From the NCBI GenBank assembly GCA_964016885.1, contig OZ024745.1:104656001-104720000 (forward strand): a stretch of 64,000 nt of DNA, in the 5' to 3' direction. The notes under the pieces are model-generated. The model saw only the letters and a program-made list of their open reading frames with translations. It did not search any database and was not told the origin of the DNA. The stretch's first letter is position 1; each line of letters opens with the position of its first letter. Shown here in pieces: positions 18,750-45,347 of this stretch. The DNA is from Eledone cirrhosa (lineage: Eukaryota). The position numbers and the translations under genes were made by a program.

Positions 18750-19290
18750 TAATATTTTGAGAATAAGCTCTCAGTCCTTTACAATAATTAAGCTCCAGGA
18801 AAGGGTCATTTCCGAGCAGTTAAATATACATTAAAATACATGATAAACACAAAACGTGTTTGCATTGCAACAGACAGTCAGCTATTAATGAAATAAACTA
18901 ATTAAAGTGAATACAATTTGTCTGTCTCGATATAAGTCAATAAAGACAATCTTATATTGGCAACTGCCATGATTCCTGGACAGATTTAAATTTCAAAATC
19001 CAAACCTGTTCTGTAGACGAATTTGAACCTCGACGATTCTCTTTATTTTTTAAATTCACATACCACCATTGCGAAACGGATTTAGGTTTCGAGGTTCAAA
19101 TTCGTCTACAGAACAGGTTTGGATTTTGAAATTTAAATCTGTCCAGGAATCATGGCAGTTGCCAATATAAGATTGTCTTTATTGACTTATATCGAGACAG
19201 ACAAATTGTATTCACTTTAATTAGTTTATTTCATTGATAGCTGACTGTCTGTTGCAATGCAAACACGTTTTGTGTTTATCATGTATTTTA

Positions 19291-19297
<7 letters not shown>
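18750..19297. mobile_element. Foldback element: about 209-bp inverted repeat plus about 75-bp unpaired tail, between (TA)n runs
   Basis: Arms 18824-19032 and 19089-19297 are nearly identical (one mismatch seen), with a 56-nt spacer. Confidence 0.9.
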
Positions 19298-19331
<34 letters not shown>

Positions 19332-19368
19332 ATTAAATAAATGGAAACTATATTTATAAAACCATATT

Positions 19369-19434
19369 TATTTCATTATATATATTTCAGGGATAACATA
19401 TTAACAATATGCTATGCCTTCCTCAGACAAAATA
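19369..19434 (-). ncRNA. Type I hammerhead at the 3' end of PLE 1
   Basis: UAUUUUGU-CUGAGGA-AGG(C)AUAGCAUAUU-GUU-AAUAUGUUAU(C)CCU-GAAAU-AUAU-AUA-AUGAAAUA. Confidence 0.75.
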
Positions 19435-20846
19435 CAATATAAACAGTTTTATAGATAAATAGATAAATAGATTCGACATACCGTACCAACATCTACTTGC
19501 ATTTGAGAAGGTTGATTTGGTTGTGACAAAATTGTACACAGAGAGAAAGAAAGAGAGAGAGAAAGAGAGAAAAAAGAGAGAAAAAAGGAAAGAAAGACAG
19601 AAAACGAAGAAAAAGAAAAAGAAGAAATGCTTGGAACAAAATAGAGAGATGGAAAGATAGATACAGAGAAGAACTTCATGTAAAGAAACAGAAAGAGATA
19701 TATATATATAGAGAGAGAGAGGAAATAGAGATAGATACATATATAGAAAGCTAGGTAGTGGAACGACTGTTGAATAACGTATCAATGATACATTTATTTG
19801 TTTATTTATTTATTTAGCTCTAGTATTAATGTAAGGGAGATATATGGAGGGAAAACCAGCTGTTAAATAGGGAGAGAAAAAATATAGAGAGAGAAAAAAG
19901 AGAGAGAGAAAATTCAAAAACATCCAGACACAAGCGAGGCGTACAAACCTCTGTTTTAATGTAGAGGTATTAGTAATTACAAAACCAGCCTCTGCATTGT
20001 AAATATCAGTATTCCTGAATGAGATATGTATCCACAATGTGTGAAAATTAATGATCTTATGTTTAGTTTTTTAAAAAATTCATATGTTTATGTGATAATT
20101 ACAAACATCTATGTGAATGTACATGATCAATTCTGCAAACCCTAAGTTCACGGAAAGTATTCTCAATGCGGTATAAAAATTTAAGTATACATATATGTGT
20201 ATATAGAGTCAATATTACTATTTCTGTCTCTACTCTACAAGATTATCTATCAAGCAAAGATAGAGCAGATTTCAATATACTAATAAAAATAAAAATAAAT
20301 AAAAATATATCGGAAACAAAACTAAACTAAAATAACAATAATAATAATAAGTAATAATAAAATAGAAAACTAAGAAATATTACGAAAGAGTATTACATAT
20401 TAAAAAAATATTATATATTAAAAAATTTACATATTAAAAATATTAAAAATATTAAAAATAAAAAATTAGGAAATACTACAGTAATAAAAATAAAATAAAC
20501 CACAAAGATCAACCCTTTAAAATTAATTGACAATATATTGCCAAGTTCATTATAAACATCAGAGTCGAAAAACAGATAAAGCCAAAAATTATCTATCAAA
20601 TCGCATCTAGCAAAGATCATTTCAAAAAGTATAGGATGCCCAATTTGGTCTACATGTGTTCTTATATTTAATATAGAAGTTTATCTAGTGTAACGTTTAT
20701 TCGAAATATTTGGAGCATCAACTTTTAGGATAGTTTAATTTTCATGAAGAATGTTTAAATAAATAAAATAAAAATAAAAAGAGTAAAAAGAGAATCAAAG
20801 ATTTATCGGCTAGTTTCCCATATAATTATAAATCAAACTAAATATA

Positions 20847-22045
20847 CTACATTTTAAATTTAAATTTATATTTAAACGTTGAGTTTAATCTATGTTTGCA
20901 ACAACTGAATAAATTTGTCCGTAGATTAAGGGAATTTTTAGATTTTAGTATAAAGAATATCTCCTCTGCGCAGAGGTCACATGTCTCAGAGGATGAATTA
21001 AAAGGAATCCCTCTTGAGACTATATTCCAAGCCGTCGAATATCTAACGTTATCTAGCTTAAGTTGCCATAGTACGCCTGATAGTGCCGTTGAAGATTTTT
21101 TACTTGGATCTGTGAAAGAATTCTTGTGGTTATTATAGCGAAGTTTAAATTCCGTCGATGTGGAACCGACGTAGTTAAAAGAATTAGAGTCAGTATTAAC
21201 ATTACAATTGTATACTATATTTTTAACTAAGCAGTTGTTATTTAACGGACATTTAGATCTATCTCTACAGTTACATTTGTTAACTTGTATATTATTTATG
21301 CTGTTATCACTAGGTTTTAAGTTCCTATTATTTATTCTATTGATATTTTATGCTAAATTTTTGGTGGATGAGTAAGTTAATTTAATTGTATGTCTATTGA
21401 AAATTGAGTGATATCTATGTGTTCTAGGGAAGCGATTATCAAGAGCTTTAAAAAATAGTTTAGCGATGTGGGTTTTAATGTTTAGTGAGAAAGGGGGGGC
21501 AAACCAAATTATGTTCCTAGTTCTATTTCTTTTTTGGCCTTTGGAATTATTGTAATGCTTTCTATTATAGTTGTTAAGGATGTTGCCGTAATTAAAAAAG
21601 TTGTTACTTTGTTTAGTTTGTCTATCATTATCTATGTACACAATCTTATCAGCATATCCTGCTCTAGCTAATGCTTCATTGTAGTATTGGGCTTTTTCGT
21701 CGAAAATCTTTCTATTCGACGAGATCCTAGAGATACGTTTTTGGACAGAGTTTACTATAGTGTTTTTGACAGATCTGGGGTGGTTAGAGTTAAAGTTTAC
21801 ATAGTTTAAGTTTTCATTCAACTTGTGAAAAGGATAGTGAAGACATGTGTTGAGATTTAATGTTATATCTAGGAAATTGACTATTCTATGGTTGTTTTCA
21901 ATTTCTATTTTAAGATTAAAGTAATTAAAAAATTGTGTAATTTGTTTACATTTTCTATTTAGTTCAGAGTTATTATTATCAATAAGTAAAAGCATGTCGT
22001 CTCTATATAAACCTCCGGTAGTACCGGGTATTTTCCTATGTAGCG
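20847..22045 (-). pseudogene. PLE reverse transcriptase C-half plus GIY-YIG endonuclease, one in-frame TAA at 21348-21350
   Basis: GLYRDDM, VNFLDITL, YVNFNSNHP and IIWFAPPFS. After the stop the same frame reads CNCRDRSKCPLNNNC, IVY...YVGST..FKLRYNNHKNSF, CDLC..E, LN, CCKH. Confidence 0.9.
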
Positions 22046-22047
22046 AA

Positions 22048-22106
22048 TTGTCTGAGGAAGGCATAGCATATTGTTAATATGTTATCCCTGAAATATATAT
22101 AATGAA
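22048..22106 (+). ncRNA. Inverted copy of the PLE 1 hammerhead
   Basis: Same core as 19369-19434. Stem I is cut to UUGU by the inversion junction. Confidence 0.7.
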
Positions 22107-22236
22107 ATAAATATGGTTTTATAAATATAGTTTCCATTTATTTAATATTGTAAATATACTCCAAATATTTGTCGAGTGCTTTTATATCAGTTATAAATAT
22201 TTTCTAGTTGTAACACAACAATTTAAATATAACTTT

Positions 22237-22275
<39 letters not shown>

Positions 22276-22324
22276 AAGAATGAAGAGTAACATGGTTGGC
22301 TGTACAATAAGGGCTGTATTTAAA

Positions 22325-22435
22325 GTACTGACAATTGTTTCGTTGATCAGGTGAGTCTAGAGTTCGCTAATCGCCCGAGGTTGCGTCATTCGATCTCCAA
22401 AACATTATTTACCTTTGGTCAACACATCAGAATAC
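22325..22435 (-). ncRNA. Type I hammerhead of PLE 2, A9U core
   Basis: GUAUU-CUGAUGU-GUUGACCA...UGAUCAAC-GAAAC-AAUU-GUC-AGUAC. Confidence 0.75.
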
Positions 22436-23082
22436 GTAGATATGAAAGTAATTCAATCGAGGCAAGACTTATATAGAAAAATGGCGTATAATCAAAACAA
22501 TAACATCAATAATAAAATAGCATATAATCAAAACAATAACATCAATAATAAAACATACATGGTAAATAGGTAGAGAAGTTACAGATGTAAAAAGTAAAAA
22601 GTAAAATATAAGATAAGGTACATTAAAAAGTAAGAAAATGAGAAAATGAAAAATATAAAAAAATGAATAAGTGAGAGCGTGTAAGTACATAGTAGTAGTT
22701 TTTTAGTAAGTGTTCTTATAAGGATTCGTTGGTGGGTTTAGTGCTAACATGAGAAACCAGATTCGAGATCTACATAGATACGTGTAGAGGGACCGATAAA
22801 AGAAAAGACAATAAATTAGAGATTAATTGGTAGATACATGTATGATATCTATGGGCTAGGGATGACGGGACATTTGATAAACGCTTGTTGTAAATGTTTT
22901 GCTCATTGTTCTATCTTAATGAGGTTGATGCTGTTTCAGGGAGAGAGGGGGAAAGAGATGTTCCGAGATTTCTGATCCAGTGACCAGTTGGCCGTTTGAT
23001 AGCTAATAGCAGTGCGATGGTGTGTATTCTATATGTTAAAATCTATGTGGGTCAGTACTAATTTTGGGATTGCTGGTTCAAA

Positions 23083-23900
23083 TCATGATGGTTTGAAGTT
23101 TGTGAATCTAGTAGGTATTTTATGCCTACAGAAAATTGATCTTTCTATTTTGCTGTTAAGCAGTATCCCATCGTACCTTAAAATATGTAGTAGTTCTAAA
23201 TTACAAAGCCCGCAGTGGGACATACCGTTGCTGTAGGCTTTTGCTACCGATAAGTTTGACCAGCTAATCTTATATTCTAGGTTTTTGTCCTTAAGCTGCC
23301 AGATTTTATTGGCGAGCGTCGGTTCTTCATGGAGTTTCTGTGGACGTACCACCTTTTCTTGAACTCCCCAGCTGTGGAACCTATGTAGTGCCAAGTAGAG
23401 TGCCTGAATTTACAGTACACAGGTATATCATACTCGAATCCAGGCATCTATTCCGTAGTGGGCACTTATCCGGTAGGTGGCAATTAGAATTTGAGGTTTT
23501 ATTTTGTGCAGGTTCATCGTTGCGGTTTTGTAAGTTGTAGGTGGGTTGTGATTTAGGCCTATTAATGTTTTGTTGTAATGTTTTCTTATGCGTTTGTGGT
23601 TGTGATGTTGTTATGTGTTTGTGTTTTGTATTTGGTGCTATGGTTGCGTGTTTGTAGGTTAATTTCTTTAGAGATATTTTTGTGGTTGATCTTACGTATG
23701 TGTGATTCTGTGTTGGCTGCAGTAGAGTAGGGAAGTTTTATAGTTTTTCTATTGAAGATTTTATGGTATTTGTCTAGTGTAGGGAAGTGCTTATCTATTA
23801 GTTTAAAGAATGTAGAAGGTAGTTTAGTTTTTATAGAGGAGTTGAATATTGGATTGCACCATAGGTACTTTCTATCTCTGGATCTTCTATAGTGTTCTGT
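23083..23900 (-). pseudogene. PLE linker plus GIY-YIG endonuclease remnant, frameshifted
   Basis: YLWCNPIFNS; SNCHLPDKCPLRNRC; MIY...YIGSTAGEFKKRW; TLANKIWQLK; CGLCNLE; LLNSK.E....CRH. Confidence 0.85.
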
Positions 23901-24456
23901 TCGGTTATATTTGGTGTTCGTTGTCTAATTCTATGCTTAGTCCTATGCCTGTTATTTCCATATGAGCGGGTAGATAGAACAATGAGCAAAACATTTACAA
24001 CAAGCGTTTATCAAATGTCCCGTCATCCCTAGCCCATAGATATCATACATGTATCTACCAATTAATCTCTAATTTATTGTCTTTTTCTTTTATCGGTCGC
24101 TCTACACGTATCTATGTACATCTCGAATCTGGTTTCTCATGTTAGCACTAAACCCACCAACGAATCCTTATAAGACCACTTACTAAAAAAAAACTAATAC
24201 TATGTACTTACACGCTCTCACTTATTTATTTCTTTATATTTTTCATTTTCTCATTTTCTTACTTTTTAATGTACCCTATCTTATATTTTACTTTTTACTT
24301 TTTACATCTGTAACTTCTCTACCTATTTACCAGACATGTTTTATTATTGATGTTATTGTTTTGATTATACGCTATTTTATTATTGATGTTATTGTTTTGA
24401 TTATACGCCATTTTTCTATATAAGTCTTGCCTCGATTGAATTACTTTCATATCTAC

Positions 24457-24567
24457 GTACTCTGATGTGTTGACCAAAGGTAAATAATGTTTTGGAGATC
24501 GAATGACGCAACCTCAGGTGATTAGCGAACTCTAGAATCACCTGATCAACGAAACAATTGTCAGTAC
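24457..24567 (+). ncRNA. Inverted copy of the PLE 2 hammerhead
   Basis: GUACU-CUGAUGU-GUUGACCA...UGAUCAAC-GAAAC-AAUU-GUC-AGUAC, with a perfect 5-bp stem I. Confidence 0.8.
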
Positions 24568-25188
24568 TTTAAATAAAGCCCTTATTGTACAGCCAACCAT
24601 GTTACTCTTCATTCTTTAACTATTATTACTCCAAGTATAATCTGCATAGAAATTACCGCGAACTCGCTGCATAACTATGGAAGCATCTTGTTGAGTCAAA
24701 CAAAGCCGTACGTTAAAACTATCCACCACGCAGAGTACTCACAACCTCTAACTGGATTACCTATAACGATAACTTGTTATCCCATATATATATATATATA
24801 AAGGTTTACATATATATATATATAAAGTCATAGATATATATGTGTTTTACAACGGGTCACGTTGTGGCTCAATGAAGAATTAATAAATTAAATGATCAGA
24901 GCTATATATCATAAAACATCTCTATAGAATCACTAGATAAAATGTATACCGTTTCTCTACCAATTAGCATAATTAACCATATAAAAAATCAATTAGACCA
25001 AGCTATAAGAATAAAGGCTCCTATGAAGAAATCTCCGACAAATAACCGAAAGCAGCCCCTTCGCGGCAGTTACAACGGAGTATTTATCGAATATTTCGAC
25101 AGCATGTATAAATCGACCAGATATACAGTCAACCAAACACAATTAGGTGTAAAATAAACTTGGAAGAAATGTGTACATATTTCATTAC

Positions 25189-25262
25189 CTCTACCATGGT
25201 TTCGTCCGTATTTTAAGACATCCGATAACAGGGGACATCCAGAGCTTCGGATTCATCAGGAG
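25189..25262 (-). ncRNA. Type I hammerhead
   Basis: CUC-CUGAUGA-AUCCG...CGGAC-GAAAC-CAUG-GUA-GAG. Stem III ACCAUGGU is palindromic. Confidence 0.75.
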
Positions 25263-26254: not shown

Positions 26255-26289
<35 letters not shown>

Positions 26290-26309
26290 CATATAAATAT
26301 ATATATATC

Positions 26310-26680
26310 GTCTATCCATGTCTGCCGAACGAGAATGCAAGGGCTCCTCCTCTTTATTTAGGCCGCGGACGGCTAACATAGCCCCATCTCCCTATGTAAA
26401 GCTATGTTGGTAACATCCAGTCCTAAATAAATGAGGTCGTGTAGGTGTCACGACAAAAAAACACACAGTCCACGCTGTAATGTGGCCGTGTAGGTAACAC
26501 GGTAAAAACCTCTCAGTCCACACTGTAAACGTGGTTGGTGTTAGGAAGGGCATCCAGCCGTAGAAAACCCGCCAGACAGTCCTGAGCAAGACAAACAATC
26601 TTACCTCTAGTGGGACAATTCCCGTCCAGACCCATGCTAGTGTGGAAAATGGACGTTAAACGATGATGATGATGATGATA
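26310..26680 (+). mobile_element. RTE-tail SINE family B
   Basis: ggttggtgttaggaagggcatccagccgtagaaa...gtccagacccatgctagtgtggaaaatggacgttaaac(gat)n. Confidence 0.8.
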
Positions 26681-26802: not shown

Positions 26803-26978
26803 TGCTATCGGTAAAGGGTCGGACGCCATGTTTTGACGCATAGAGTTACGGCCCTTTCCATTCTGAGTTCAAATCCCGCTGAGGTTAACTTTGCCTTTCA
26901 TCCTTACAGGGTCGATGAAACAAAGAACCAGTAATGCACTGGGTATTTGCTGGCCTTGTGCCAAAAGTAGAAAAAAAA
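26803..26978 (+). mobile_element. SINE family A
   Basis: Matches the 57449 copy. Confidence 0.85.
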
Positions 26979-26983
26979 ATTAT

Positions 26984-27560
26984 TGCTGCCATGTCCTGCG
27001 TCTCCAACAGAACAGCATCTGTCCTTAGGGCATCAACATACGTTAACCTTGGTCTTCCTCTTCCAGTTTTTCCATGCAGGGGCTCCCACAGGAGCACTGA
27101 GTGCAGTGTCAACTCTGGATGTCGGTGAGCATGTCCAGCTAACCTCAGTCTCCTCTGTGTCACTTTTGAGCTGACTTTTGGGAGGCTCTCATACAGCTCT
27201 GAGTTTTTCATCCTCAGTGTATACTGATTAATGTTTAGAGCCATCCTCAGCATTCTCGTGCAGCACCCATCCACCACCTGAGTGAGTTTCTTGGTCAGTG
27301 TCCAAGTCTCAGACCCGTATAGCAGCACAGACTCCACTACAGCAATGAAGAGGCGGATCTTCAGGTCTTCATGAAGGTCCGACTTCCATACCGATCTCAA
27401 GCTGTGGCACGCCGCCCAGGCTTTGCTCTTCCTCTCAACCACATCATCTTCCGTATTCCCAATCTTTGATCCCAAATACAGGAAGTCCTCAACTACTTCC
27501 AGTGGCTTCCCGCCTACATTAGTAATCCCCTCTGGCTTCTCAACATTCTCTACCAGACAT
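26984..27560 (-). mobile_element. RTE-clade LINE fragment, ORF C-terminus
   Basis: LEVVEDFLYLGS, ESVLLYGSETWTLT, RRLRLAGH and GRGRP motifs. Confidence 0.9.
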
Positions 27561-27821
27561 TTTGTATATATATATATATAGTTATGTAATACGATAATTA
27601 TTTCATTTACCAGTGGTTTCTTGAAAGCAAGCAAAATTTGCTTTCAGTCATCAGAATGAAAAAATCCTGGTGTATTTATTGACAGTGGATTTTAAAAACA
27701 AAAATATAATCTATATGAAAGAGAGGCTGGAAAAGGAAGAAGGAAAGGAAAAAGAATAAATATAAAAGTAGATAAACACACATGCACACACATACACACA
27801 CACATATACATACACACATAT

Positions 27822-28040
27822 ATGTAGCTTTTTTAAGGTCTCCTTTTTTTAACCAGTTCCATGTCTGTGGATCTCTAAATTCTGTTTTCTTAAAGAAGGT
27901 GCTATGAAGGGATTTTTCATGAAGGTTGCTCTTCCTCCTTGATGTTATTTCCTCCTTGGACATCTCCTGGTCTATTGTCTTCTCCTTCAGTACAATTTTG
28001 AGCATTGGGTCCCTACTCTCAGTCACATATTTGTGCAGGT
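27822..28040 (-). mobile_element. Internal fragment of a second R4/Dong copy
   Basis: KSLHSTFFKKTEFRDPQTWNWLKKGDLKKAT is paralogous to 29785-30005. Confidence 0.9.
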
Positions 28041-28065
28041 TATTATTATCATTATCATTATTATT

Positions 28066-29045
28066 ATGAGACTGGAATGTCTTCAGGCGCTCACAGCCCT
28101 CGACCAATCGGGCAATGTGATCGGTGGAAACTCCGCCTTGGCGTTCTATAGGGGATTAGTGGAGGGGAAGAGCGACGACGTACTTGGAGAAACTCTAGGC
28201 GTCGACGAAAATCAACTAGCCAATCTCTTCGGAAGGACTTTCGGGCCGGGGCCTATGGACAACTTCCAGAAATCCCTGGTCTGGCAGTGCTACCGAGGAG
28301 CTTTGCCAGTTCGGGATAAACTCTACAGGCATGGAGGTGCCGTTAGCCGGGCATATCCGAGATGCGCGCAGGGCGACGAAACCGTCCTGCACGCACTCGT
28401 CCAGTGTCCGAGCATTGCTGACTTGTGGGTTTATGTCGAACACCTGCTGTCACGTATAGGACGGATCCAGCTATCAGCTGAGTCCCTCGTGAGGATTGCC
28501 CCGCCCTCTTCCTTTAGCCGGGAAGGGCAGGCAGTTTTTATCTGTCTGGTGGCCATGGCAAAAGAGATAGTATGGTGGACACGTTTGAAAGGGCTGAAGA
28601 CGAGCACTTACCTCTTCGGTGATGCCCTGATTAACTTTTTCAAATTTTATTTGAAAAGGAAAATCAGGGTAGAGAGGGAAGTGCTCTCTTCCCAGCATTT
28701 TGTTGAAAGATGGGTGAGAGAAGCAAGTATGGCCCGAGTGAATGGGCCTACTCTGAGTATGTGTCTGTAAATTAAAGGTGGAAAACTGGGAGAGGGCACT
28801 TACCCTCGTGGTCAGGGTCACTGTGTTCTTTTAATGGGCTTTCTCCACAAATGTCCCTCGGAAGTCTCCCCCTATTGGGGAATTTTTCATTGTTATTTTT
28901 ATTACATCCTCTGTTTTTTTTCCACACAGAAATGCCCATTTGTACCGTCCTGTATTGTCCTGTACTGTCCTTAATGTCTACTTTATGTAAACCTTTGTGG
29001 TTAATAAAGAAAACATTATTATTATTATTATTATTATTGTTATTG
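28066..29045 (+). mobile_element. Tx1/L1-clade LINE 3' fragment (zf-RVT region) with (ATT)n tail
   Basis: WQCYRGALPVRDKL..PRC...ETVLHALVQC..IWW.R. The 3' UTR ends aataaagaaaac(att)n. Confidence 0.85.
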
Positions 29046-29048
29046 TTA

Positions 29049-32000
29049 TTCCTTGAATCTCAGTCATTGATGTTGGTTAACTGGAAAGTCCGTTGGATTG
29101 AATATCAAGCCACTACCTGCAGCCTCAGATATTCAGGACGTATCGGAGGGTTCTTGCCGTTCCAAGCAAGCATGCCTTTTGAAGCGTTCCAAAAAGCGTG
29201 AAGGGGCCGATTTTCTTTAACCATCCCTGGAAACCTTTGGAGATAGTCCCCAGTGCGCCTATGACAATCGGGATCACTTTGACTTCATGGCAGTTCCAAA
29301 TCCTTTTCACCTCCCACTTTAGGTCCTGGTATCGGTTAATTTTCTCCCTCTCCTTCTCTTGCACTCTCGTGTCGAACGGGCAGGCCACATCCACAATCAG
29401 GCACGATCTTTTTTCTTTGTCCACAACCACCAGGTCAGGTCTATTGTGTTCCAGTTTTTTGTCCGTCTGTATCCTAAAATCCCACAGCACCTTCACCTGA
29501 CTGTTCTCCATCACCGCCTCTGGCCTATGCTCATACCATTTCTCAGAATGTGGTAGATTGTTTACTTTGCACAGGTGCCAGTGGATCACCCTGCCCATCA
29601 CATCGTGTCTCCAGCCCTTATAGTGGGTCTGGGCTAGGTGTTTACACTCGGACACAATGTGAGCCACAGTCTCCTCTCTCTCTCCACAGATCCTGCACAG
29701 TGGGCTAGCCTCCTCCTTGTAGATATGGTGCTTCAACCACTTCGTTTTGAGGGCCTGCTCCTGCGCAGCCATTAGCATTCCTTCTGTAGCCTTTTTGAGG
29801 TCTCCTCTTCTCAACCAGTTCCATGTCTGTGGATCTCTAAATTCAGTTTTCTCAAAGAAGGTACTATGAAGGGATTTTCCCTTAAGGCTGCTCTTCCTCC
29901 TTGATGTTATTTCCTCCTTGGGTATCCCCTGGCCTACTGTCCCCTCCTTCAGTACAGCTCTGAGCATTGGCTCCTTACTATAGGTCACGTATTTGTATAG
30001 GTTGTTTTTCTCCATCTGAACACATGCTGATAAGACCTCTTCCACCCTCAGATCTCCTTAGGTAGAGTCTATCGACATCACTCCTCTTGTGGAACATGTT
30101 GTAGATAGTCAATAGCTTCCTAGTCTTCCTATCCATTTCTTTTTGTTCAGCAACATTCCATCTCAGAATTCCCGCACTGTACCTAATAATAGACACAGCT
30201 CGGGAATTTACTGCGCTTATGGCATTTCTGCAGTTCAGATGTGACTTCAATACGCTCCTTACTCTCCGAATGTATTCAGTTCTTAACAATTCCTTCATTT
30301 TTTTGTTCTTTATGCCATCAGCCTCCAGAACGCCCAAATACTTGTATCCTTCCTCAGAGTCAATTTCCTTTATCATCTCACCTGTTGGTATCTGGATCCC
30401 GTTACTTCTGCTCAACCTACCCCTCCTCATCACAATGACTCCACATTTACCAATACCAAACTGCATACATATATCACTGCTGAAAATACGGACAGTGTCA
30501 ACAAGCACATCCAACTCCTTCTCACTTTTCCCGAAGAGCTTAAGATCGTCCATGAAGAGGAGGTGATTGATGGTAAGCTCTCCCCTTCACAACTTGTATC
30601 CTGCTCTCACTTTTCGCAGCATAATGGTCAAGGGCATCAGGGCAAGGACAAACAACAGGGGGGGACAGGCTATCTCCCTGGAAGATACCTCTCTTGATCT
30701 TCACGCTTCCCAAGGATACTCCAGTTGATGTCAACTCTGTCTCCCAGGACCCCATACTCCTGCCCAGCAACTGTCTGATGTTATCTGCCACCCTGAAGAT
30801 CTCCAGGCTTTTGGTGATCCAGGAATGAGGCACCATGTCAAATGCCTTTCTGTAGTCTATCCATCCCATGGCAAGATCAGTGTGTCTCCTCCTGCAATTC
30901 CCCATTACCATCTTATCAATAAGCAACTGGTCCTTTGTACCACGTGACTTCTTTCGGCATCCTTTCTGTTCGTCCGGCAACAAGTTGTTTGTGTGGAGGT
31001 GATGGTAGATTTCCTCAGACACAATGCTCGTCAACAGTTTCCACATTACGGGCAGACATGTGATAGGTCTATAGTTGGTAACATCATTACCCTTGATTCG
31101 GTCTTTCATTATCAGAACTGTGGTACCTTTTGTCAACCACTCTGGCACCTCACCCGACACCAAGCAGTCATTGAACATGGCCGTCAGCTTCGGGTGGAGG
31201 GATGTTAAATGTTTAATCCAATACCCCTGCACACCATCTGGGCCTGGTGATTTCCAGTTGGTTAGTTTTTTGGCTTGCCCCTTAAGAGTTTCAACTGTGA
31301 TACTCAAATCAGTCTGTTGCTGTGCCTGCTCACCGATCTCCCTCTGTACTGTCTCAATCCACCCTGCCTGGGCATTGTGTCTAACATCCTGCTCCCATAT
31401 TCCTCTCCAGAATGTTTTAGCTTGTTCCGCCCCAGGGATCAAGTCGGTGCCTCTTTCTTTCCCCTCAAGCTGTCCAAACAGCATCTTCTGGTTGTTGTCG
31501 AACATGCGGTTCTGTTTATACTGACTGACTCTGTTCTCGTATCGCCTGATTTTGGCACTCTTTGCTACAATGCGTTGCTTCAATTCCTCTATGATAATAT
31601 TTAGCTTTTTACTCCTAGTTTTGTATTTTATTTCCAGTCTATTTTTAGTGCCTATGTTTTTTAGTGTCCCATTCAGTAGTGACTCAAGCTTTCCTATGTC
31701 ATTTCTCATTTCCCCGATTTGCCCACTCAGTCGCTTCTTCCACCACGGCTCTGCTCTTTCTTGTCTGTTGTTTCCTCTCGCTTTTATACCAAGTAGTTTC
31801 CTCACCGTATTTGCTGTTGCTTTGAGGATATTGTTGCACTGGTGAAGACTCCTCGCCTCAAGGTATGGGATGACTTTGTTTACCTTAGCTGTTGTTTCTT
31901 TTAACTTTTTCCTGTCTACAAATCTTAGGTTCATAGGTCTCCCACTATCATTGTTCAACTCATCTACCACTAAATTTAGGATGTCAACCGAATCTTGTCC

Positions 32001-32348
32001 TAGCCCGTCAGCATTCATCTCCTCAGTGGCCGTATCTCTGTTCCAGGTATTATTTATCTCAGTATTCAGATCATTGTCTGCTTCGGGTGGTTCCTCCGCT
32101 CTCAGGACCTCCTCACCTTCATTTCCCGCCGGCTCGCTTGTCTGGCATCCTACACCCGCCATCTCCAAGCCATTCTCTCTGCTCAGTTCCTCCAGTTCCA
32201 GCTCGCTTATCCACCCATTAGTTCTTATTACCCGAGCCTGCCCGGCCAATTTTTGTTCATCTAATTTAAATAAACCAATCTCGTTCCAGATGTTATGCAT
32301 CCGTCTCCTGTAGCCCCTCTCCTTGGGGTTACTTTTCAGGTAGCATTG

Positions 32349-32351
<3 letters not shown>
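29049..32351 (-). mobile_element. R4/Dong-clade non-LTR retrotransposon (RT plus restriction-like endonuclease) in (TAA)n
   Basis: YRPITCL, IDYRKAFD, GIFQGDSLSP, FMDDLK, CRIC...ETVAHIVSEC, RHD and RPDL...IVDVACP...EKIxRY. (TAA)n on both sides. Confidence 0.93.
29125..32351 (-). pseudogene. R4/Dong ORF broken by two frameshifts, near 30660 and 30030
   Basis: Three overlapping ORFs (603, 191 and 306 aa) tile one RT-REL protein. A G7 run at 30658-30664 breaks the frame just after QGDSLSP. Confidence 0.88.
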
Positions 32352-32402
<51 letters not shown>

Positions 32403-32403
<1 letters not shown>

Positions 32404-32874
32404 GGGCAGTGGATATTGTGTGGTGGACAAGGTTGAAAGGGTTGAAACAGACTTTTTCCTCTCCAGCCAATCCCTGATTAACTTTTTGAAGAGGAAAATC
32501 AGGGTGGAGAGGCAAGTGCTCTCTTCTAGTAAGTTTATTGAAAGGTGGGTGAAAGTGGCGAGTCTGGTCTGAGTGAATGGGCCTGCTCTGAGTATATGCC
32601 TGTAGACTGAGGAGTGGGAAAACTGAGAGAGGGTGCTTGCTCTGGTGGCCCTGGTCTTTTGTGTGGTTTTCGCCACGAGTGACTCTCGGAGGTTTCCCCT
32701 TTTCTGGGGAATTTTTGTTGTTTTGAATTTATTTGATTTCTAGTCCGTTTTCTATCTTGTTATAACCTTTTTACATGGCCAAAACCCCCATTGTATCGTC
32801 CTGTACCGTTCTGTGCTGTCTGTAATGTTTTTCTTCATGTTAACCATTGTGGCCAATAAAGAAACCATTATTAT
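32403..32874 (+). mobile_element. Tx1/L1-like 3' fragment, second copy
   Basis: Homologous to 28565-29015. Ends ttgtggccaataaagaaacc(att)n. Confidence 0.85.
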
Positions 32875-37370: not shown

Positions 37371-39149
37371 ATTCAGTATAGAAAAATTATGTTGATCTGA
37401 TTTATCAAGGAGGCTGGGCTGTTTTCTTCTTTTTTTTTTTATTATCACACAGTCTACTCGTAATATTTAGCCAGTTGATATCATAATTATTTCTCTAAAA
37501 CATGATTTCCTAAATCACATCACACACCAGAAGGAGAAACAAAATAATGAAATAACTAAGTAAAAACAAAATAAAATCTTTAAAAAAAAATGTTATGTTA
37601 TGCTCTAAAGAATCCTTTTGAATACTATTACACTATTTCTCAATGAAATATAATTAATAAAATTGTTTGGCGCCATCAGATTAAGTCTTATATTGATATT
37701 GATGGTCCTTTATGAACTTAATAGCTGAATAGTACCACTAGCTGAAAGAGATGGAAATTAGGGGAGGAGGGAATAAGTATCAAAGTAACAGAGAAAGGAA
37801 GGGGTCAGAAAAAAATGAAGGAGGAAGGGAGGAGGAGGAGGAGGAGGAGGAGAAGAAGAAGAAGAAGAAATGATAAATGAATCAATAAGTAAATGTATAA
37901 GATTGTACATTAGTGGTGTAAGAAAATTGAATTGTTTAAGGAAAAGATGATTCAAAGAAAGTAGTTGAGAAAGAAAGAGCGAAGGAAAGAGAGAGAGAAA
38001 GAGAGAGAGGGGGGGAGAGAGAGAGAGCAAGTGCACAATGTTTGCCATATTACAAAATATAACCACATAAACATAATGAAAAGTTTCTATAATGGATGAG
38101 AGATATATTGAGAAAAAATATATACAGCCAGCAGTGAAATAAATTCTTGTGTTGCTGTTTAGCCTCCAGTCAAGCCCGATCAAACAGCTTTATGATCAAA
38201 TGCATTCCAGCTGTGAACATCCTATCATTTTAGATATTAGAGTCTATATCATCGAATGTGTCCTTCCTTTTTTACATACTAGTTGGGTGTAAATTGAGGG
38301 GAATTTAGCTGTTATTACTAGTAGGTCGAGGTGGCAAACTGGTAGAGTTATTAAAATGTTGGATAGAATGCTTTGTGGTTTTCATTTTGGCTCTGCTCTG
38401 AGTTCAAATCCTGCTGAGATTAACTTTGCTTTCATCCATTTTAGGTCGATAAAAAAAGTACCAGTCAAGTTGATTCTTTCTCTATATCTTTCTCATTTCC
38501 ATCCTCTCACTCTCTATCTTTCTGTGGAAGGAATCTGCTGCATTCAGACCTGGAGATGGATGGGCTCTGCCAAGTTTAAAAATCCTCTAGAAATGCTGTA
38601 TGTTAACACAGCGCCCTTACGACTCCTTCAGGAGTTACAAGACCATGAACGCAGTAGTAGGTTGAGCAACCACAAAGAGACACCCCTGTTGGCTTTCAAG
38701 AGCTTGTTGTTTCTTATGTAGTATTTATCGATAACATTTTCTGTATACCCTAGGTGAAAATTATAATGGTTAATTTATTACATGAGGTGTTTTAGATAAG
38801 AAATTATAATCACCACAAATCATAAATGTCTGTATCATAGATTAGAGACTGAAATAGTTACTGGACAACGAAGCAAGAAGAGATTAGCAGTTTGTTTCAA
38901 GTTACCAAAACTGTGTTATATCTGTGACCAAGGTACTTACATTTTGGTTGCTGAGTTCACCTACCATGCAGATAGTGTCTCTGAGTTGTTAACCTCAGTG
39001 ATTTAACTATGCTTACTCTAGTATGTTTTTGTATATCTATCTATTTAGTGATGTTCTTATCACTACTTGGGCTACTATAGTTACGTTTATACTTCTTCAA
39101 GGAGGCCTAGTAAGACCAAAGCATACCAAGAGCTGAGTGCAGTATTTCA

Positions 39150-39890
39150 ACATCATTATCATCGTCACCGTTTAACGTCCATTTTTCCATGCAAAAAGCA
39201 CCCAGTACTCACTGTAAATATGGTTGGCGTTAGGAAGGTCTTCCAGCTGTAAAAACCAAGCCAAAATTGGTTCTGTATGAACAAGACATGGTCACCTGAC
39301 CTGGCATTTTTCACAACAGGATAACTCGTCTAATCCATGCCAGCGTGGAAAATGGACATTAAACAGTGATGATGATGATAATAATTGTTTCTATTTTTTT
39401 ACACAAGGCCAGCAATTATCCCAGTGAATTACTGGTGTTTTATTTTATCGTAAGGATGAAAGGCAAAGTTAAATTCGGTGGGATTTGAACTCAGACCATA
39501 AAGGGGCATAACTCTATGCTGCAAAGCATGGCGCCCAACCCTTAATAGACTAAGTTCAAAAACATTGATTATTATCCATACAATTAGTAAATACTCTTAA
39601 ACAAAGATGGGAAGATCATAGCTGCACTGCTTTTGGTAAAAGGTCTGCTCAGTCAGAGTTGATCTGGGGTTAAATAATAGTGTCCATCACTTCTGTTATA
39701 ATAATTGTTTCTACTTTAGGCACAAGGCCAGCAATTTACCCAGTGCATTACTGGTACTTTATTTTATTGACCCCGTAAGGATGAAAGGCCAAATCAACCT
39801 CGGCGGGATTTGAACTCAGATCGTAAAGGGACATAACTATGCTGGAAAGCATGGCGTCCGATCCTCTACTGATACTGCCAATCCACCGTT
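39150..39890. mobile_element. Cluster of family B fragments and two minus-strand family A SINEs (39381-39542, 39701-39890)
   Basis: Family motifs as described for the other copies. Confidence 0.75.
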
Positions 39891-41092
39891 ATAATAAAAT
39901 CCACTATGTGCAACCTACAAAACCTGGCACTAAAGATTTTACCCAAATCTCTTTTTCTCTGTTTCTAAATTAATTTTCTCCTGACTAAATAGATAAACAA
40001 ATAAATAAATAAATAAAAGAAATTTATCTCTTATTCAATTTATGCTACAGAAACATGAGATAATCAACAAACCTAGAGATCCTGTGGATCAAGAAAGATA
40101 TTAGCTATCTTGCTATTATTACAAATTATACATGACAAATTAATCCAGTAATTAAAAACAAGCAGATTAGTGCTTCAAATCAGTGAAAGTTTTCCAATAT
40201 TATCTTTTTGCTATGTTACTGCTGGTCTTGCTATTGAGCTCCTCCTGTCATCTAGATATGAGCCAATAATGGAGCCTCTATATAGTTTTTTTGACTTGCT
40301 AGAAATAGCAGCCAAATCTCACTCAAATTACATGCTGTTGACTTAAAATCAGAAAGGATACATTAGATTATGTAATTCTAGATGCTTCTAAAAGAATGAG
40401 TTGGTCACATGTGGCACACTTCTAATCATAGATCTTCTTGATCAGGGTTGACCTGGGGTTAAATAAAAACAACAGTGATAGAGATACACCAACAGTATAA
40501 CAGAATGAGATTAAAACATTAGTGTTAAAAACACCCAAACTGTTCCAGAAAAATTAAATACACACACATGTACATATGCATGTATACACCACACACACAC
40601 TCTCGCTCTCACACACACACACAGGCACAAACACACACACAGGAACACATGCATGAAGAGTTGCAATGTTAATAGCTGCGCTAAGCCTAAATTTTGTATT
40701 GGGTTACCATTCACTCTTAGAGATGGCAGCTACTGTTTGTAATGGCCAGTACTTGACACTTTAGTAAATGAAACATGACTATAGTAGAAGAGACTTGTCT
40801 AAGTTACTATGCAATGGGACTGAACCCATAACCACATAGTTCTGAAGGGAACTCCTTAGCCACATGGCCATGATATATATGTATCCTGGGTATGACATTG
40901 AACTGTATCCCGTAGCAAGGCTCCAGTTCAGGAGTTCAGGAGTTGTGGGGAATGTGGAGTTACCCCTTAGTTGCTATCGCTCCCAGGTCTGCTCTGGCCT
41001 GAAGTAGTAGTATCTGTTAGGGTCCCATTTATGGGTTAATTAATTACCTTACTTGAGTGGCGCCGGTAAGATATTATCAACCATTGAAAAGA

Positions 41093-41162
<70 letters not shown>

Positions 41163-41164
<2 letters not shown>

Positions 41165-42183
41165 GACCTGTTGGTACGTTGTCGGACCGCATGAACTTCG
41201 TTTTCATGTGGTTCATCTTGAGGCCTACTGCAGAGCTTTTGATGTCGAGCTCCATCAGCATGGACTGAAGCTGATCCGTGGTTTCAGCGATGAGTACGAT
41301 GTCATCAGTGCAATGGAGGTGCCCAAGTATCTCGCCATTGATGTTGACACCGCCTTGCCAGTCAATGCCTCTGATGATCTGCTCGAGACACGCGGTGAAA
41401 AGTTTTGGAGAGATCGTATCTCCTTGCTTCGTATCTCCCTTCTCAACCGGCACTCGTACGGGTGATGACAGCAGAGCTATGTTGGTGGTGCATCCGGAAC
41501 TCGCCTCCCTGAGCAGTTGAACGTATTGTGCCTCGACTCCTTGCCTCTGCAGCGAGTTCAGCACTGCGTTGATTGGTGGTTGGCAGTGATGAAATAGAGG
41601 AGGTGGAGGAATACGTCTACCTGGGACAAGAGGGAGATCTCGCGGAGAGTAAGGGCTGGATGGAAGGCATTCAACGGCATAAGGGATGTGCTCAAGGGGA
41701 GGTTGGACAAGACCACCCGCGCCAACCTCTTCAATAGCACAGTTTTACCTGCAATGTTATATGGCAATGAAACTTGGGCTACAACGAAGAGAGAAGAGCA
41801 GAGGCTGGTAACGGCTCAAAGAGCCATGGAGAGATCGATGCTAGGAATTTCGTTGAGAGAGCACATCAGGAGTGAAGTCATCAGACAGAAGTCCGGCGTG
41901 AGGGACGTCATCACGGAATATATGCACAGGAAGTTCAGATGGGCTGGATATGTCGCCCGGTTCACCGATAATCGGTGGACCCACGCAGTTGCCGAGTGGA
42001 ACCCGCGTGAGCAGAAACGACCACTCAGAAGGCCACCACGAGGGTGGAGTTACGATTTTAAGAATACGATTGGGAATACATGGATGAGGAAAGCATGATC
42101 CAGAGAGGAATGGACGGCATGCTGTGACCAGTGGCGCTGAATGGACATCTGACAGACTGGTCGGTCAAGGTGATCAAGGTGAT
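41163..42183. mobile_element. RTE-clade LINE with 5' inversion, in (TA)n
   Basis: Minus segment 41163-41570 (QGDTISPKLF, HCTDDIVL...VPTGR) continues as plus segment 41571-42183 (LVVGSDEIEEVEEYVYLGQ...FRWAGYVAR). Confidence 0.9.
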
Positions 42184-42279
42184 ATATATATATATATATA
42201 TATATATGACTGAATATGCACATTTTTCCATCTGCTTCTCATTCTTTATTTTTCTATTTATCTTCTATTTCTAACTCTA

Positions 42280-42315
42280 TCTTCTGATGACAGATTAGTG
42301 TCCAAAACATTAAGA
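42280..42315 (+). ncRNA. Decayed minimal hammerhead; paralogue at 58292-58326
   Basis: UCUU-CUGAUGA-CAGAUUAGUGUCC-AAAAC-AU-UA-AGA. The inferred consensus with the paralogue is CUGAUGA-AGGAC-UAAU-GUCC-GAAACGUUA-AGA. Confidence 0.5.
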
Positions 42316-42404
42316 CTTTTCCTGCTATTTCAAGCGTTAAACTAGTATATTTCTTCAATATACTGTGTTGTTTGCTTCGTTATTTCTGTTTACCATTTAC
42401 ATAT

Positions 42405-42552
42405 ATGGTTGGTATTAGGAAGCTGTAGAAATCCTGCCAGAAATAGTTCTATACAAGTGAGACACAGTCACCCTTACCAATCTTGCCTCAAGTGGGACAA
42501 ACCCATACAACCCATGCTAGCATGAAAGATAGACGTTAAACGATGATGATGA

Positions 42553-42553
<1 letters not shown>
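42405..42553 (+). mobile_element. RTE-tail SINE family B 3' part
   Basis: cccatgctagcatgaaagatagacgttaaac(gat)n. Confidence 0.75.
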
Positions 42554-42587
<34 letters not shown>

Positions 42588-42736
42588 GTGTGTGTGTATA
42601 TATATATATATAAATGTAAGTATGTATGTATACGTACATACATATATGTATACAGACGTACAGTATTATGTATATATATACATACATCCACACATATATA
42701 TATGTACGTATGGGTTTACCGAACATTTATTATAGG

Positions 42737-42795
42737 CAGGAAGGTATACGATGCTGACGATAGCTAATAAGCTTGAAACTAGTACATCGTTCCTG
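42737..42795 (+). ncRNA. Minimal type I hammerhead with extended stem I
   Basis: CAGGAA(GGUAUA)CGAUG-CUGACGA-UAGCU-AAUA-AGCUU-GAAAC-UA-GUA-CAUCG-UUCCUG. Stem III ACUAGU is palindromic. Confidence 0.85.
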
Positions 42796-43407
42796 TGTCA
42801 GTGTTGAACAAAAAGGCAACAATGGTTGCCTGAACACTGTACGGCGTAATTCGGGCTGTTTGTTTGTTTACAAACAAACTGAACATTATAATAAATGTTC
42901 GGTAAACCCATACATACATATATATATGTGTGCATGTATGTATATATATATATATACATACTACTGTACGTCTGTATACATATATGTATGTACGTATACA
43001 TACATACTTACATTTAAGTATCAGCCATACTAAGAGTGAGAAATGAAATTTTGTTTCATTTTTTCCATTTATATATATATATTATATATATATACACACA
43101 TATATGTGTTTGTGTGTGGGTGGGTGAAAGTTGTACTTCTATCGGTTCTGCTGATGAGTGTTATGGACTAGCCTCTTGTGAAATTAATGTACAAATGGTT
43201 GAGTATTCCACAAACCTGTGTATCCTTAACCCTTTAGTTACCAACTTGACCAAAACCAGCTCTATTTTTATGAAACAAAACCACCCATTTTAAAGGTTTC
43301 TTTAAATTAAAATCTTCCAACATAATTTTATATAAGAACCATACATTAAGTTACTATTTTCGTAATTAAATAATTAAGTAATTGTAGTAAATCCCTCAGA
43401 ACTGTTC

Positions 43408-43592
43408 TGGCAGTATCGGTAGAGGGTTGGACACTATGCTTTGACGCATTGAGTTACGGCCCTTGCCATTCTGAGTTCAAATCCCGCCGAGGTTAACTTT
43501 GCCTTTCATCCTTACGGGGTCGATAAAATAAAGTACCAGTAATGCACTGGGTAATTGCTGGCCTTGTGCTAAACGTAGAAACAATTAATTAA
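43408..43592 (+). mobile_element. SINE family A
   Basis: Near-identical to the 57449 copy. Confidence 0.9.
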
Positions 43593-43646
43593 TTATAATA
43601 GAGTGTATTTCATTAGAAATGCAGTCATGAAAGGGTAAAAGTAATT

Positions 43647-43837
43647 CTCAGGTAGATTCAGTGTGATGCAGTATGTGAAAAAGATGGTCTTTTGAATTAC
43701 AGGTACAACTTCTGTTTACCAGGTGAGTGGACTGGAGCAATGTGAAATAAAGTTTCTTGTTCAAGGATACAACTTGCCACCAGGAATGAAACCCGTGAAC
43801 ATGAACTGAACACCCTAAGCTCTTAGCCATGTGCCTT

Positions 43838-43838
<1 letters not shown>
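43647..43838 (-). mobile_element. tRNA-derived SINE with a CORE-like segment
   Basis: ggcacatggctaag...tccttgaacaagaaactttatttcacattgctccagtccactca matches 16780-16912. Confidence 0.7.
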
Positions 43839-43878
<40 letters not shown>

Positions 43879-44235
43879 AAATACACATAAACAGATACAT
43901 ACACACACACATACACTTACACATATATATGCATATATACACATACAGATAAACATAGATACACACACACACACATACACACACAAATATACACACATAT
44001 ATATATATGCATATATATATATATATATAAATATAAACATAGATACACACACATATAAACTTACCTCCAAATATGAAATACTTTTTTTCTATTTATTTAT
44101 TGTGTATCTGAAATGTTTTTAATCATGTGAGTTTCTCCTTGTCAGTTCTATGATAGTTTTGAAAAAAATTATTTTTTTCTACTTAACATTTTATTTATAT
44201 ATTTATTCACATAGTTATTGAATATGGAAAAAATA

Positions 44236-44284
<49 letters not shown>

Positions 44285-44407
44285 TGATTTCTAAAGAATG
44301 AAACAATTCTAGTCCTGTAGAATCTCATCTATATTAAAACTTGAATACTCTGCTATGTATTGAGTACCTTACTTACTGTGGTTACCTCCAATTCAACCCG
44401 GAATAAC

Positions 44408-44448
<41 letters not shown>

Positions 44449-44452
<4 letters not shown>

Positions 44453-44678
44453 GTATAATAAACAATACAATATAATTACCTCATTACCAGAGGTTTCCCG
44501 AATAAGACGAATACGAAAAAGGACGTTTTTTTCATATTCGTCTTATTCGGGAAACCTCTGGTAATGAGGTAATTATATTGTATTGTTTATTATACATTAA
44601 ATTTTGCTCTGGTACTTCCATAGAGCACTCTTCACTCCTATGACTTTTTCAATTTTCAACGGAAACTTCAATACTTAT
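44449..44678. mobile_element. Foldback element: 72-bp arms plus about 78-bp tail, between (TA)n runs
   Basis: Arms 44449-44520 and 44528-44599 with one mismatch. Carries GAAAC-CUCUG-GUA, a possible hammerhead 3' half. Confidence 0.9.
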
Positions 44679-44696
44679 ATATATATATATATATAT

Positions 44697-44901
44697 TGCT
44701 TAAACCATTTTGTTTGTTCACCCTAGCGTCCCCTTTATTTACGTGTCCCAACGACTTTTTTTAGCTGTTGTTCGCACCAACCTGAGCTATATGGCCTTTA
44801 AAGCGATGAAATGCCTAGGACGGTTGGAAGGTCACTGATGAAGGACTTACTTTTTCATATGTAACCCATTTGCAACGCCGCAGCTCCATTATTATCATAT
44901 T

Positions 44902-44905
<4 letters not shown>
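44697..44905 (+). mobile_element. (TA)n-flanked structured repeat, unassigned family
   Basis: Homologous to 46128-46350 and 16929-17025. Confidence 0.8.
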
Positions 44906-44943
<38 letters not shown>

Positions 44944-44944
<1 letters not shown>

Positions 44945-45347
44945 TTGTGTATAATGGTAGCTATGGTGCTTCCATAGGCGTTATGCCAAAATTAGCACTC
45001 AATATTCATACAGAGTAGAGTGTGGATAGTATAAAAAAACAAAAATTCAGTGATGCATCTGGACTCAGTTTATTGCATGTTACAATTGTTTCGCCAGCCG
45101 GTAGCTCGAGGCATGATCACTGTATGGATCTGGCTGATTCTACGGCTGCAGGTTCCTTTGGACACGGGTAGTTCGTTCGGAGCAAATTTTCTCCGAACGA
45201 ACTGCCCGTGTCCGAAGGAACCTGCCGCCGTAGAATCAGCCAGATCCATACAGTGATCATGTCTCGAGCTACCGGCTGGCGAAACAATTGTAACATGCAA
45301 TAAACTGAGTCCAGATGCATCACTGTTTTTTCGTTTTTTTATACTAT
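44944..45347. mobile_element. Foldback element: about 157-bp arms plus about 82-bp tail, between (TA)n runs
   Basis: Arms 45026-45182 and 45191-45347 with an 8-nt loop. Confidence 0.92.
45258..45297 (+). ncRNA. Hammerhead-like motif with shortened core (CUCGA); mirror copy at 45076-45115 on the minus strand
   Basis: CAUGU-CUCGA-GCUA-CCGGC-UGGC-GAAAC-AAUU-GUA-ACAUG. Confidence 0.65.

What the first reader, a model, noticed from the sequence alone, without database searches (positions are those of the whole stretch)
18750..45347. One architectural rule links coding Penelopes and anonymous palindromes
Seen in five elements: one inverted arm abuts (TA)n directly, and the other continues as a unique tail of about 75-160 bp before (TA)n. 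The elements are 18750-19297, 19326-22240, 22271-24783, 44449-44678 and 44944-45347. The spacer between arms shrinks from 2.6 kb and 1.05 kb (coding) to 56, 7 and 8 nt. Known: 5'-truncated Penelope copies often carry an inverted pLTR with a tail extension. Inference: these MITE-looking hairpins are extreme-truncation products of one fold-back or second-priming reverse transcription route, and a steady source of long dsRNA.
Basis: partly seen in the sequence, partly recalled or inferred. Interest (0 to 1): 0.75.

Follow-up and report, generated by a model that had tools for sequence, protein, structure and literature searches.

The report
Two-ended Penelope insertions mimic MITEs
These lopsided mirror-image sequences are insertions of Penelope-like jumping genes and their stubs, not DNA transposons; each was likely made when both cut strands of a TA repeat started copying the element's RNA at two fixed, hairpin-marked points, and their abundance would supply much double-stranded RNA if they are transcribed.

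Summary
All five elements are real: one arm touches (TA)n, the other runs on as a 75-163-nt tail. E2-E5 belong to Hydra-clade Penelope-like families. Copies of the anonymous palindromes E4 and E5 join RT/GIY-YIG coding sequence upstream and an ORF start downstream, and the coding families E2/E3 also make short palindromes. E1 is part of a non-coding 558-bp tandem unit with no coding parent found. They are not MITEs. Simple fold-back fits poorly: in 77 resolved two-armed copies the tailless arm is longer in 34, the tailed arm in 19; tailless solo, symmetric and two-family chimeric insertions exist. Priming on both cut strands at two fixed RNA sites is likely, matching published in-vitro start sites. 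Both sites are followed by an RCTC...GAGY hairpin, and 5' ends pile up at a family-specific boundary, so truncation is not purely random. Density is 36 in 600 kb of random sequence. dsRNA is only predicted; expression is untested. The architecture is published; this scan has noted the same reading, twin hairpins included, on other pieces of this genome.

The parts
18750..19297 (.). E1: head-to-head pair of partial copies of a non-coding 558-bp tandem unit; tailed copy on minus strand (monomer 269-558), tailless copy on plus strand (214-481)
18750..18820 (-). E1 tail (between priming site 2 and site 1)
18792..18817 (-). E1 GCTC...GAGC hairpin just after site 2
19326..22047 (-). E2 long, tailless, 5'-truncated Hydra-type copy (RT C-terminal half, GIY-YIG domain, long 3' UTR, pLTR to site 2)
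20847..22047 (-). E2 coding remnant (YRDD, CxCX5C linker, YVG, CxxC, CxH); one in-frame stop between the RT and nuclease parts
22048..22240 (+). E2 short inverted copy with hammerhead-like core (CTGAGGA...GAAA) and 86-nt tail
22158..22177 (+). E2 ACTC...GAGT hairpin just after site 2
22271..23971 (-). E3 long, tailless copy with frameshifted RT-end/GIY-YIG remnant (23083-23924) and 3' UTR
23972..24783 (+). E3 shorter inverted copy with hammerhead-like core near 24461 and 162-nt tail
24628..24696 (+). E3 ACTC...GAGT hairpin with a long loop just after site 2
44450..44677 (.). E4: head-to-head pLTR stubs of a coding Hydra-type family; tail 44599-44676 on plus strand
44606..44626 (+). E4 GCTC...GAGC hairpin just after site 2
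44944..45345 (.). E5: head-to-head pLTR stubs of a coding Hydra-type family, both arms reaching the family's -250 boundary; tail 44944-45027 on minus strand
44997..45021 (-). E5 ACTC...GAGT hairpin just after site 2
42611..43069 (.).
   Evidence: family not traced to a coding parent

Best explanation
The five elements are (TA)n insertions of Hydra-clade Penelope-like retrotransposons (E2-E5) and of a non-coding tandem unit likely mobilised by them (E1), and each two-armed insertion is likely built from two cDNAs primed on opposite cut strands at two fixed RNA sites and joined head to head. Steps: (1) shown: every family has two fixed outer ends, site 1 (tail end) and site 2 (75-160 nt upstream), both at a short TA stretch of the element's own sequence; (2) shown in sequence: each site is followed 6-11 nt later by an RCTC motif, usually closing a hairpin with GAGY; inferred: this hairpin docks the reverse transcriptase; (3) inferred, and in line with in-vitro work on a related element: the GIY-YIG domain nicks both strands and each 3' end primes one cDNA, so the tail is the distance between the two start sites; (4) shown: inner ends vary but pile up at a family boundary a little upstream of the hammerhead-like motif; inferred: this is run-off at the RNA's 5' end, so short palindromes are pairs of solo pLTRs or short non-autonomous RNAs; (5) inferred: the two cDNA ends are joined by end-joining with short overlaps or insertions; the two templates usually come from one source (for example the two pLTRs of one tandem transcript) and rarely from two families; (6) predicted only: read-through transcription would give long dsRNA.
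For: Coding parents: E4 end continues upstream into GIY-YIG and RT (L185-L187) and its tail continues into an ORF start in 9 of 12 loci; E5 likewise (L182-L184; ORF start in L399, L400 and a damaged one in L398, 3 of 3 pattern matches); L254 is a full-length E2 copy with inverted tailless arm, 5' pLTR, 755-codon open frame and 3' pLTR plus tail. Coding families E2/E3 give short palindromes too. Arm lengths: of 175 loci anchored on a tail or on site 2, 77 were resolved as two-armed: tailless arm longer 34, tailed arm longer 19, within 10 nt 24; in the window the tailless arm is the long one in E1, E2, E3. Site 2 primes alone: 7 of 59 site-2 loci are tailless solo copies with TA on both sides; symmetric site-2/site-2 palindromes L393-L396 (two independent insertions, one triplicated); L343's second arm lies wholly in the tail. 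Two-family head-to-head chimeras: L123, L137, L189, L190, L350, L355. 5'-end pile-up: E5 24 of 75 ends in -253..-240 against 4 and 0 in the flanking windows; E2 15 of 29; E4 11 of 46; E3 5 of 23; L397 holds a tandem of the -250..0 unit. Hairpin motif: after site 2 in 5 of 5 window elements; strict RCTC in 8 of 22 distinct tails from unselected sequence against a shuffle mean of 1.6, maximum 7 in 2000; after site 1 in E1, E2, E4, E5 and, unselected, in 4 of 30 loci of an E1-related family that read past the tail. Literature: two adjacent RT start sites bracketing the tail, both strands cut and extended, predicted dimer (PMC11167929).
Against: Arms of one copy are more alike than arms of different copies (E5 3.9% vs 7.0%, E1 1.1% vs 5.5%; little difference in E2), which fold-back also predicts. 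24 of 77 copies have equal arms, and many E5 joints sit on a native near-palindrome, as fold-back would give. One-sided deletion of a perfect palindrome after insertion could make either arm longer; chimeras could be two separate insertions that lost the TA between them. 79 of 175 loci were unresolved; the set holds one duplicate (L096 = L354), a near-identical pair (L218/L219), one misfiled chimera (L137), and the E2 short-variant reference ends at -265, which inflates the E2 boundary count. 14 of 22 unselected tails lack a strict RCTC at 4-14 nt; E4's site-1 GCTC has no close GAGC partner; the E4 and E5 site-1 searches asked for RCTC, and E3 site 1 rests on one locus. No coding parent for E1; no hammerhead core found in it. 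Rfam reported no hammerhead in the window.
Confidence: 0.75

Rival explanations
1. One cDNA primed at the tail end folds back on itself and is copied back to site 2; later one-sided deletions at the palindrome centre make the arms unequal.
For: Arms share subfamily variants; 24 of 77 copies have equal arms; joints often fall on native near-palindromes; self-priming was proposed for inverted Penelope junctions (PMC3846280 Discussion).
Against: The tailless arm carries sequence the tailed arm lacks in 34 of 77 resolved copies and in E1, E2, E3 (2.5 kb more in E2); tailless solo copies, site-2/site-2 palindromes and two-family chimeras exist; it gives no reason for a fixed site 2 with its own hairpin and TA stretch.
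Confidence: 0.17
2. The short palindromes are themselves source elements: a palindromic locus is transcribed and copied whole, so fixed-length families spread like SINEs.
For: The 40 best full-length matches to E5 are nearly all about 400 bp; many joints sit near -245.
Against: That list is selected for likeness; tail-anchored copies run from 164 nt to 4.7 kb with differing joints.
Confidence: 0.05
3. They are MITEs of a TA-targeting DNA transposon, with TA target duplications hidden in the microsatellite.
For: Palindromic shape, TA flanks, high copy number; a minority are symmetric (L393-L396; 4 in 600 kb).
Against: Lengths are not fixed, ends are asymmetric in 36 of 40 random cases, and the traced parents encode RT and GIY-YIG, not a transposase; the symmetric E4 copies belong to that RT family.
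Confidence: 0.02

Closest known systems
EN+ Penelope-like insertion unit with inverted 5'-truncated pLTR and one-sided tail (PMC3846280 passages and Discussion; PMC8557442 passages)
   Same: Head-to-head inverted copy, partial tandems forming pLTRs, tail on one side only, microsatellite targets.
   Different: Tails here are 45-170 nt, not 30-40; ORF-less pairs of stubs are the commonest product; the evidence favours priming on both strands over the self-priming proposed in 2013.
Hydra clade of Penelope-like elements (PMC8557442 section 11; Hydra-1_Obim in its supplement, seen in part)
   Same: C-terminal GIY-YIG, RWK/RWR, DKT, CxCX5C linker, CxxC and CxH, (TA)n insertion, hammerhead-like motif in the pLTR.
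   Different: Units of about 3.5-3.9 kb with 1.2-2.2-kb 3' UTRs (paper: generally under 3 kb); clear pLTRs and inverted arms; thousands of candidates per family in this genome.
Anolis Poseidon element in vitro (PMC11167929, main text)
   Same: Two RT start sites bracket the tail; both strands cut and extended; start is internal to the RNA, near the ORF start, at a stem-loop; AT-rich target.
   Different: Other clade; there the start lies in an AC-rich stem-loop inside the ORF and is not homologous to the target, here both sites lie upstream of the ATG, at a short TA stretch, each before an RCTC hairpin.
L1 twin priming and proposed dual priming (PMC2837659 passages)
   Same: Both nicked strands prime cDNA, giving an inverted insertion.
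   Different: L1 twin priming gives inversion with deletion and a variable internal site; here arms overlap (duplication) and both start sites are fixed, closer to dual priming by two templates.
Non-LTR retrozymes / non-autonomous PLEs (10.64898/2026.07.22.740005, first fifth read; MRC1 passage in PMC8557442)
   Same: E1 is a non-coding head-to-tail tandem unit with PLE-type ends.
   Different: E1 is 558 bp, no hammerhead core was found, and it inserts as inverted pairs.

Membership tests
Hydra-clade PLE (E2, E4, E5 parents; E3 remnant) | Single ORF with RT and C-terminal GIY-YIG nuclease | tested here: met
   L254 755-codon frame with YRDD and YVG; L187, L182/L184 by tblastn. Pfam gave only a weak GIY-YIG hit, E 0.075, for E2 and nothing for the rest.
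Hydra-clade PLE | RWK and DKT motifs in the N-terminal region | tested here: met
   E2 IRWRA/SDKTN, E4 MRWKA/SDKTK, E5 RMRWRA/SDKTG; E3 not covered.
Hydra-clade PLE | CxCX5C linker, CxxC and CxH around the nuclease end | tested here: met
   CxCX5C in E2, E4, E5; CxxC in E2, E3, E4; CxH in E2, E3, E5; E3 linker is decayed.
Hydra-clade PLE | Insertion into (TA)n | tested here: met
   Tail ends followed by (TA)n in nearly all tail-anchored loci.
Hydra-clade PLE | Canonical hammerhead ribozyme in the pLTR | tested here: inconclusive
   Core pattern found in E2 and E3; E4 and E5 family copies show a CCGANG variant by eye; Rfam found none; cleavage not tested.
Hydra-clade PLE | Placement in the Hydra clade by RT phylogeny | not tested
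   Only by-eye likeness of the E4 parent to the part of Hydra-1_Obim shown; no tree built.
Non-LTR retrozyme (E1) | Non-coding head-to-tail tandem units | tested here: met
   558-bp monomer in tandems of 2-4; longest frame 72 codons; no tblastn hit.
Non-LTR retrozyme (E1) | Type I hammerhead in each unit | tested here: not met
   No core match on either strand of the monomer or in the window arm.
MITE | Fixed length and terminal inverted repeats at both ends | tested here: not met
   Lengths vary from about 110 nt to over 4 kb; one end carries a tail in most two-armed copies.
MITE | Transposase-coding relative sharing the ends | tested here: not met
   Relatives of E4 and E5 code RT/GIY-YIG; no parent of any kind found for E1.
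MITE | Target-site duplication | not testable with these tools
   Cannot be read inside (TA)n without empty-site alleles.

The most novel reading that the evidence does not exclude
Hydra-type Penelope elements integrate by default through dual priming: two tandem TA + RCTC...GAGY hairpin signals each dock one reverse transcriptase of a dimer, fix the two start sites and so set the tail length, while run-off at the RNA's 5' end yields on the order of 180,000 near-perfect hairpin loci that could be a main substrate for RNA hyper-editing in this animal.
Probability: 0.45. Interest if true: 0.68.

Novelty: new member of a known kind. Interest (0 to 1): 0.42.

Why it matters
How Penelope-like elements make their inverted, one-tailed insertions is stated as open in PMC8557442 and PMC3846280. 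This genome supplies thousands of natural products that favour priming on both strands and point to a small, movable RNA signal, which makes the question directly testable in the existing in-vitro system. It also warns that MITE-looking palindromes in (TA)n can be retroelement stubs. If transcribed they add a large pool of near-perfect dsRNA: 71 of 256 fifty-base tiles with a close inverted partner in 600 kb lie inside them; an octopus was reported to be exceptional for such loci and for hyper-editing, with its repeats unannotated (PMC5625713 passages). The architecture itself is known, which caps the score.

Tried and rejected
RNA evidence: no RNA holder listed; no reads were laid. Rfam scan of the window gave only sub-threshold miRNA-like matches and no hammerhead. 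Pfam did not name the RT or nuclease beyond one weak hit; the protein search returned 271 relatives, nearly all unnamed. A coding parent for E1 was sought through its own copies, relaxed BLAST over fetched loci and a related family: none found; the RT hit in L419 is not joined to that family's tail. The whole-region BLAST scan missed four of the five known elements and the first anchored scan had a filter bug; both were replaced. Full-length queries select for look-alike lengths and were not used for arm counts, except in the variant-sharing test. Shared variants between arms could not separate same-source templates from fold-back or gene conversion. L383/L384 looked symmetric but carries a tail behind an expanded TA and was not counted as symmetric. 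Literature: twin or dual priming for Penelope elements and the paired hairpin signal were not seen in the listings; subscription papers, Repbase notes and unread supplements may hold them. Whether the window lies in a gene was not tested.
Full report
Observation. All five elements are present as described. One arm begins at a (TA)n run and the other continues for 77-163 nt before the next run. Arms are 95-100% complementary. The five share no DNA similarity with each other in the window. The window lies in a 3.0-Gb genome, G000.

It is a genome-wide rule. First-look candidates per family ran from 328 to 2584 (not copy numbers). In 60 stretches of 10 kb taken at round coordinates an anchored scan found 36 asymmetric elements of 94-4195 bp, 4 symmetric ones and 9 with a gap over 200 nt that look like dispersed repeats. 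Scaled up, that is roughly 180,000 loci, a rough figure. Tail length is constant within a family (78 in E4, 85 in E5, 82-84 in E1, 88 in E2, 163 in E3, 60 and 80 in two other families) while total length varies.

What the anonymous palindromes are. E4's tailed end continues about 1.45 kb upstream into a GIY-YIG domain and RT, and its tail runs on into an ORF start in 9 of 12 loci. E5 does the same (L182-L184; L398-L400). L254 is a full-length member of E2's family: tailless inverted arm, 5' pLTR with tail, a 755-codon open frame, 3' UTR, pLTR and tail. The coding families E2 and E3 also yield palindromes of 260-500 bp. The proteins carry RWK/RWR, DKT, CxCX5C, CxxC and CxH, the features given for the Hydra clade (PMC8557442 section 11), and the E4 parent resembles by eye the part of Hydra-1_Obim shown in that paper's supplement; no tree was built. 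E1 differs: it is cut from a non-coding 558-bp unit found in tandems, with outer ends at monomer positions 481 and 558 in nearly all loci. No coding parent or hammerhead core was found. A short non-autonomous variant sharing E2's last 178 nt also forms palindromes.

Mechanism. Fold-back of a tail-primed cDNA requires the tailless arm to lie within the tailed arm. Of 175 loci anchored on a tail or on site 2 (window copies and one duplicate dropped), 77 resolved as two-armed: tailless longer 34, tailed longer 19, equal 24; 19 were solo, 79 unresolved (caveats in the Against line). Site 2 acts alone: exact site-2/(TA)n joints number 618 for E4 and 128 for E5, with 0 for the reversed patterns; 7 of 59 examined are tailless solos with TA on both sides; L393-L396 end at site 2 on both sides. 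Six loci join ends of two different families head to head with no TA between. Joints show overlaps of 1-15 nt in 36, insertions of 1-12 nt in 28, blunt ends in 3 and larger changes in 10 of 77. This fits the in-vitro result that a Penelope protein cuts and extends both strands and starts at two sites bracketing the tail (PMC11167929, parts 1-2 of 4 read), and resembles dual priming as proposed for L1 (PMC2837659 passages). Against: arms of a copy are more alike than arms of different copies, and one-sided deletion after fold-back is not excluded; self-priming is the published suggestion (PMC3846280 Discussion).

Signals. Both sites fall at a short TA stretch of the element itself and are followed by RCTC, mostly paired with GAGY. 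In unselected tails the strict motif occurs in 8 of 22 against 1.6 in shuffles, so it is common but not universal. I tested this after an earlier scan note mentioned a shared hairpin; another note, seen afterwards, reports the twin arrangement. Inner ends cluster at a family boundary, and L397 holds a tandem of exactly that unit; run-off at the RNA's 5' end is the likely cause but is untested.

dsRNA. Predicted folds are very stable (E1 -369, E5 -317, E4 -117 kcal/mol; perfect runs of 63-147 bp). In the random sample 256 of 11,935 tiles have an inverted partner at 90% or more within 2 kb, 71 of them inside these elements, so they are a substantial but minority source by this count. A published figure for an octopus is 4.4 per thousand at a stricter threshold (PMC5625713 passages); the comparison is loose and the species here was not determined. 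Expression remains open.

Known versus new. Inverted truncated copy, one-sided tail and (TA)n bias are published (PMC8557442 passages; PMC3846280 passages); tandem non-autonomous derivatives too (10.64898/2026.07.22.740005, first fifth). Priming on both strands for Penelope elements and the paired hairpin were not seen in the listings. The scan has recorded these readings on other pieces of this genome (none near this window). Verdict: real, ordinary in kind, with a testable mechanistic refinement; interest 0.42.

Noticed in passing
window 42611-43069: Sixth element of the same shape with internal TA runs: arms 42611-42734/42887-43016 and a tail of about 53 nt; family present in many fetched loci.
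   Followed up: partly
window 44283-44408: TA-flanked 126-bp stub with a decayed arm of about 15 nt and an ACTC...GAGT hairpin; the family is two-armed in L107.
   Followed up: partly
window 44697-44904: Single-arm TA-flanked island with a CTGATGA core; two copies in L441.
   Followed up: partly
window 49299-49651: Degenerate (71%) palindrome of short GGATC-containing repeats, not TA-anchored, no match in fetched loci.
   Followed up: no
window 59170-63150: Tandem array with a period of about 127 bp made of a SINE-like fragment and TA runs.
   Followed up: no
window 26885-32477, 41049-42098, 51751-53736: Decayed LINE-type reverse transcriptase frames on both strands, one split by a (TA)n expansion at 41096.
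   Followed up: no
L253:4200-4620 and L401:1500-1560: Arms or copies ending 30-130 nt beyond the tail, suggesting rare third priming sites further into the ORF leader.
   Followed up: no
L253:2-1970: A separate 656-codon open Hydra-type frame next to the E2-family copy.
   Followed up: no
L195, L196, L202, L209, L212, L222: Young non-autonomous element of about 265 nt that shares only the last 178 nt with E2 and has its own upstream part.
   Followed up: partly
L103:central 700 bp: E5 tail fragment amplified as a minisatellite with (GT)n spacers.
   Followed up: no
L393-L395 (G000:C1:347.50-347.76 Mb): One symmetric E4 palindrome present three times with shared flanks, a local segmental triplication.
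   Followed up: partly
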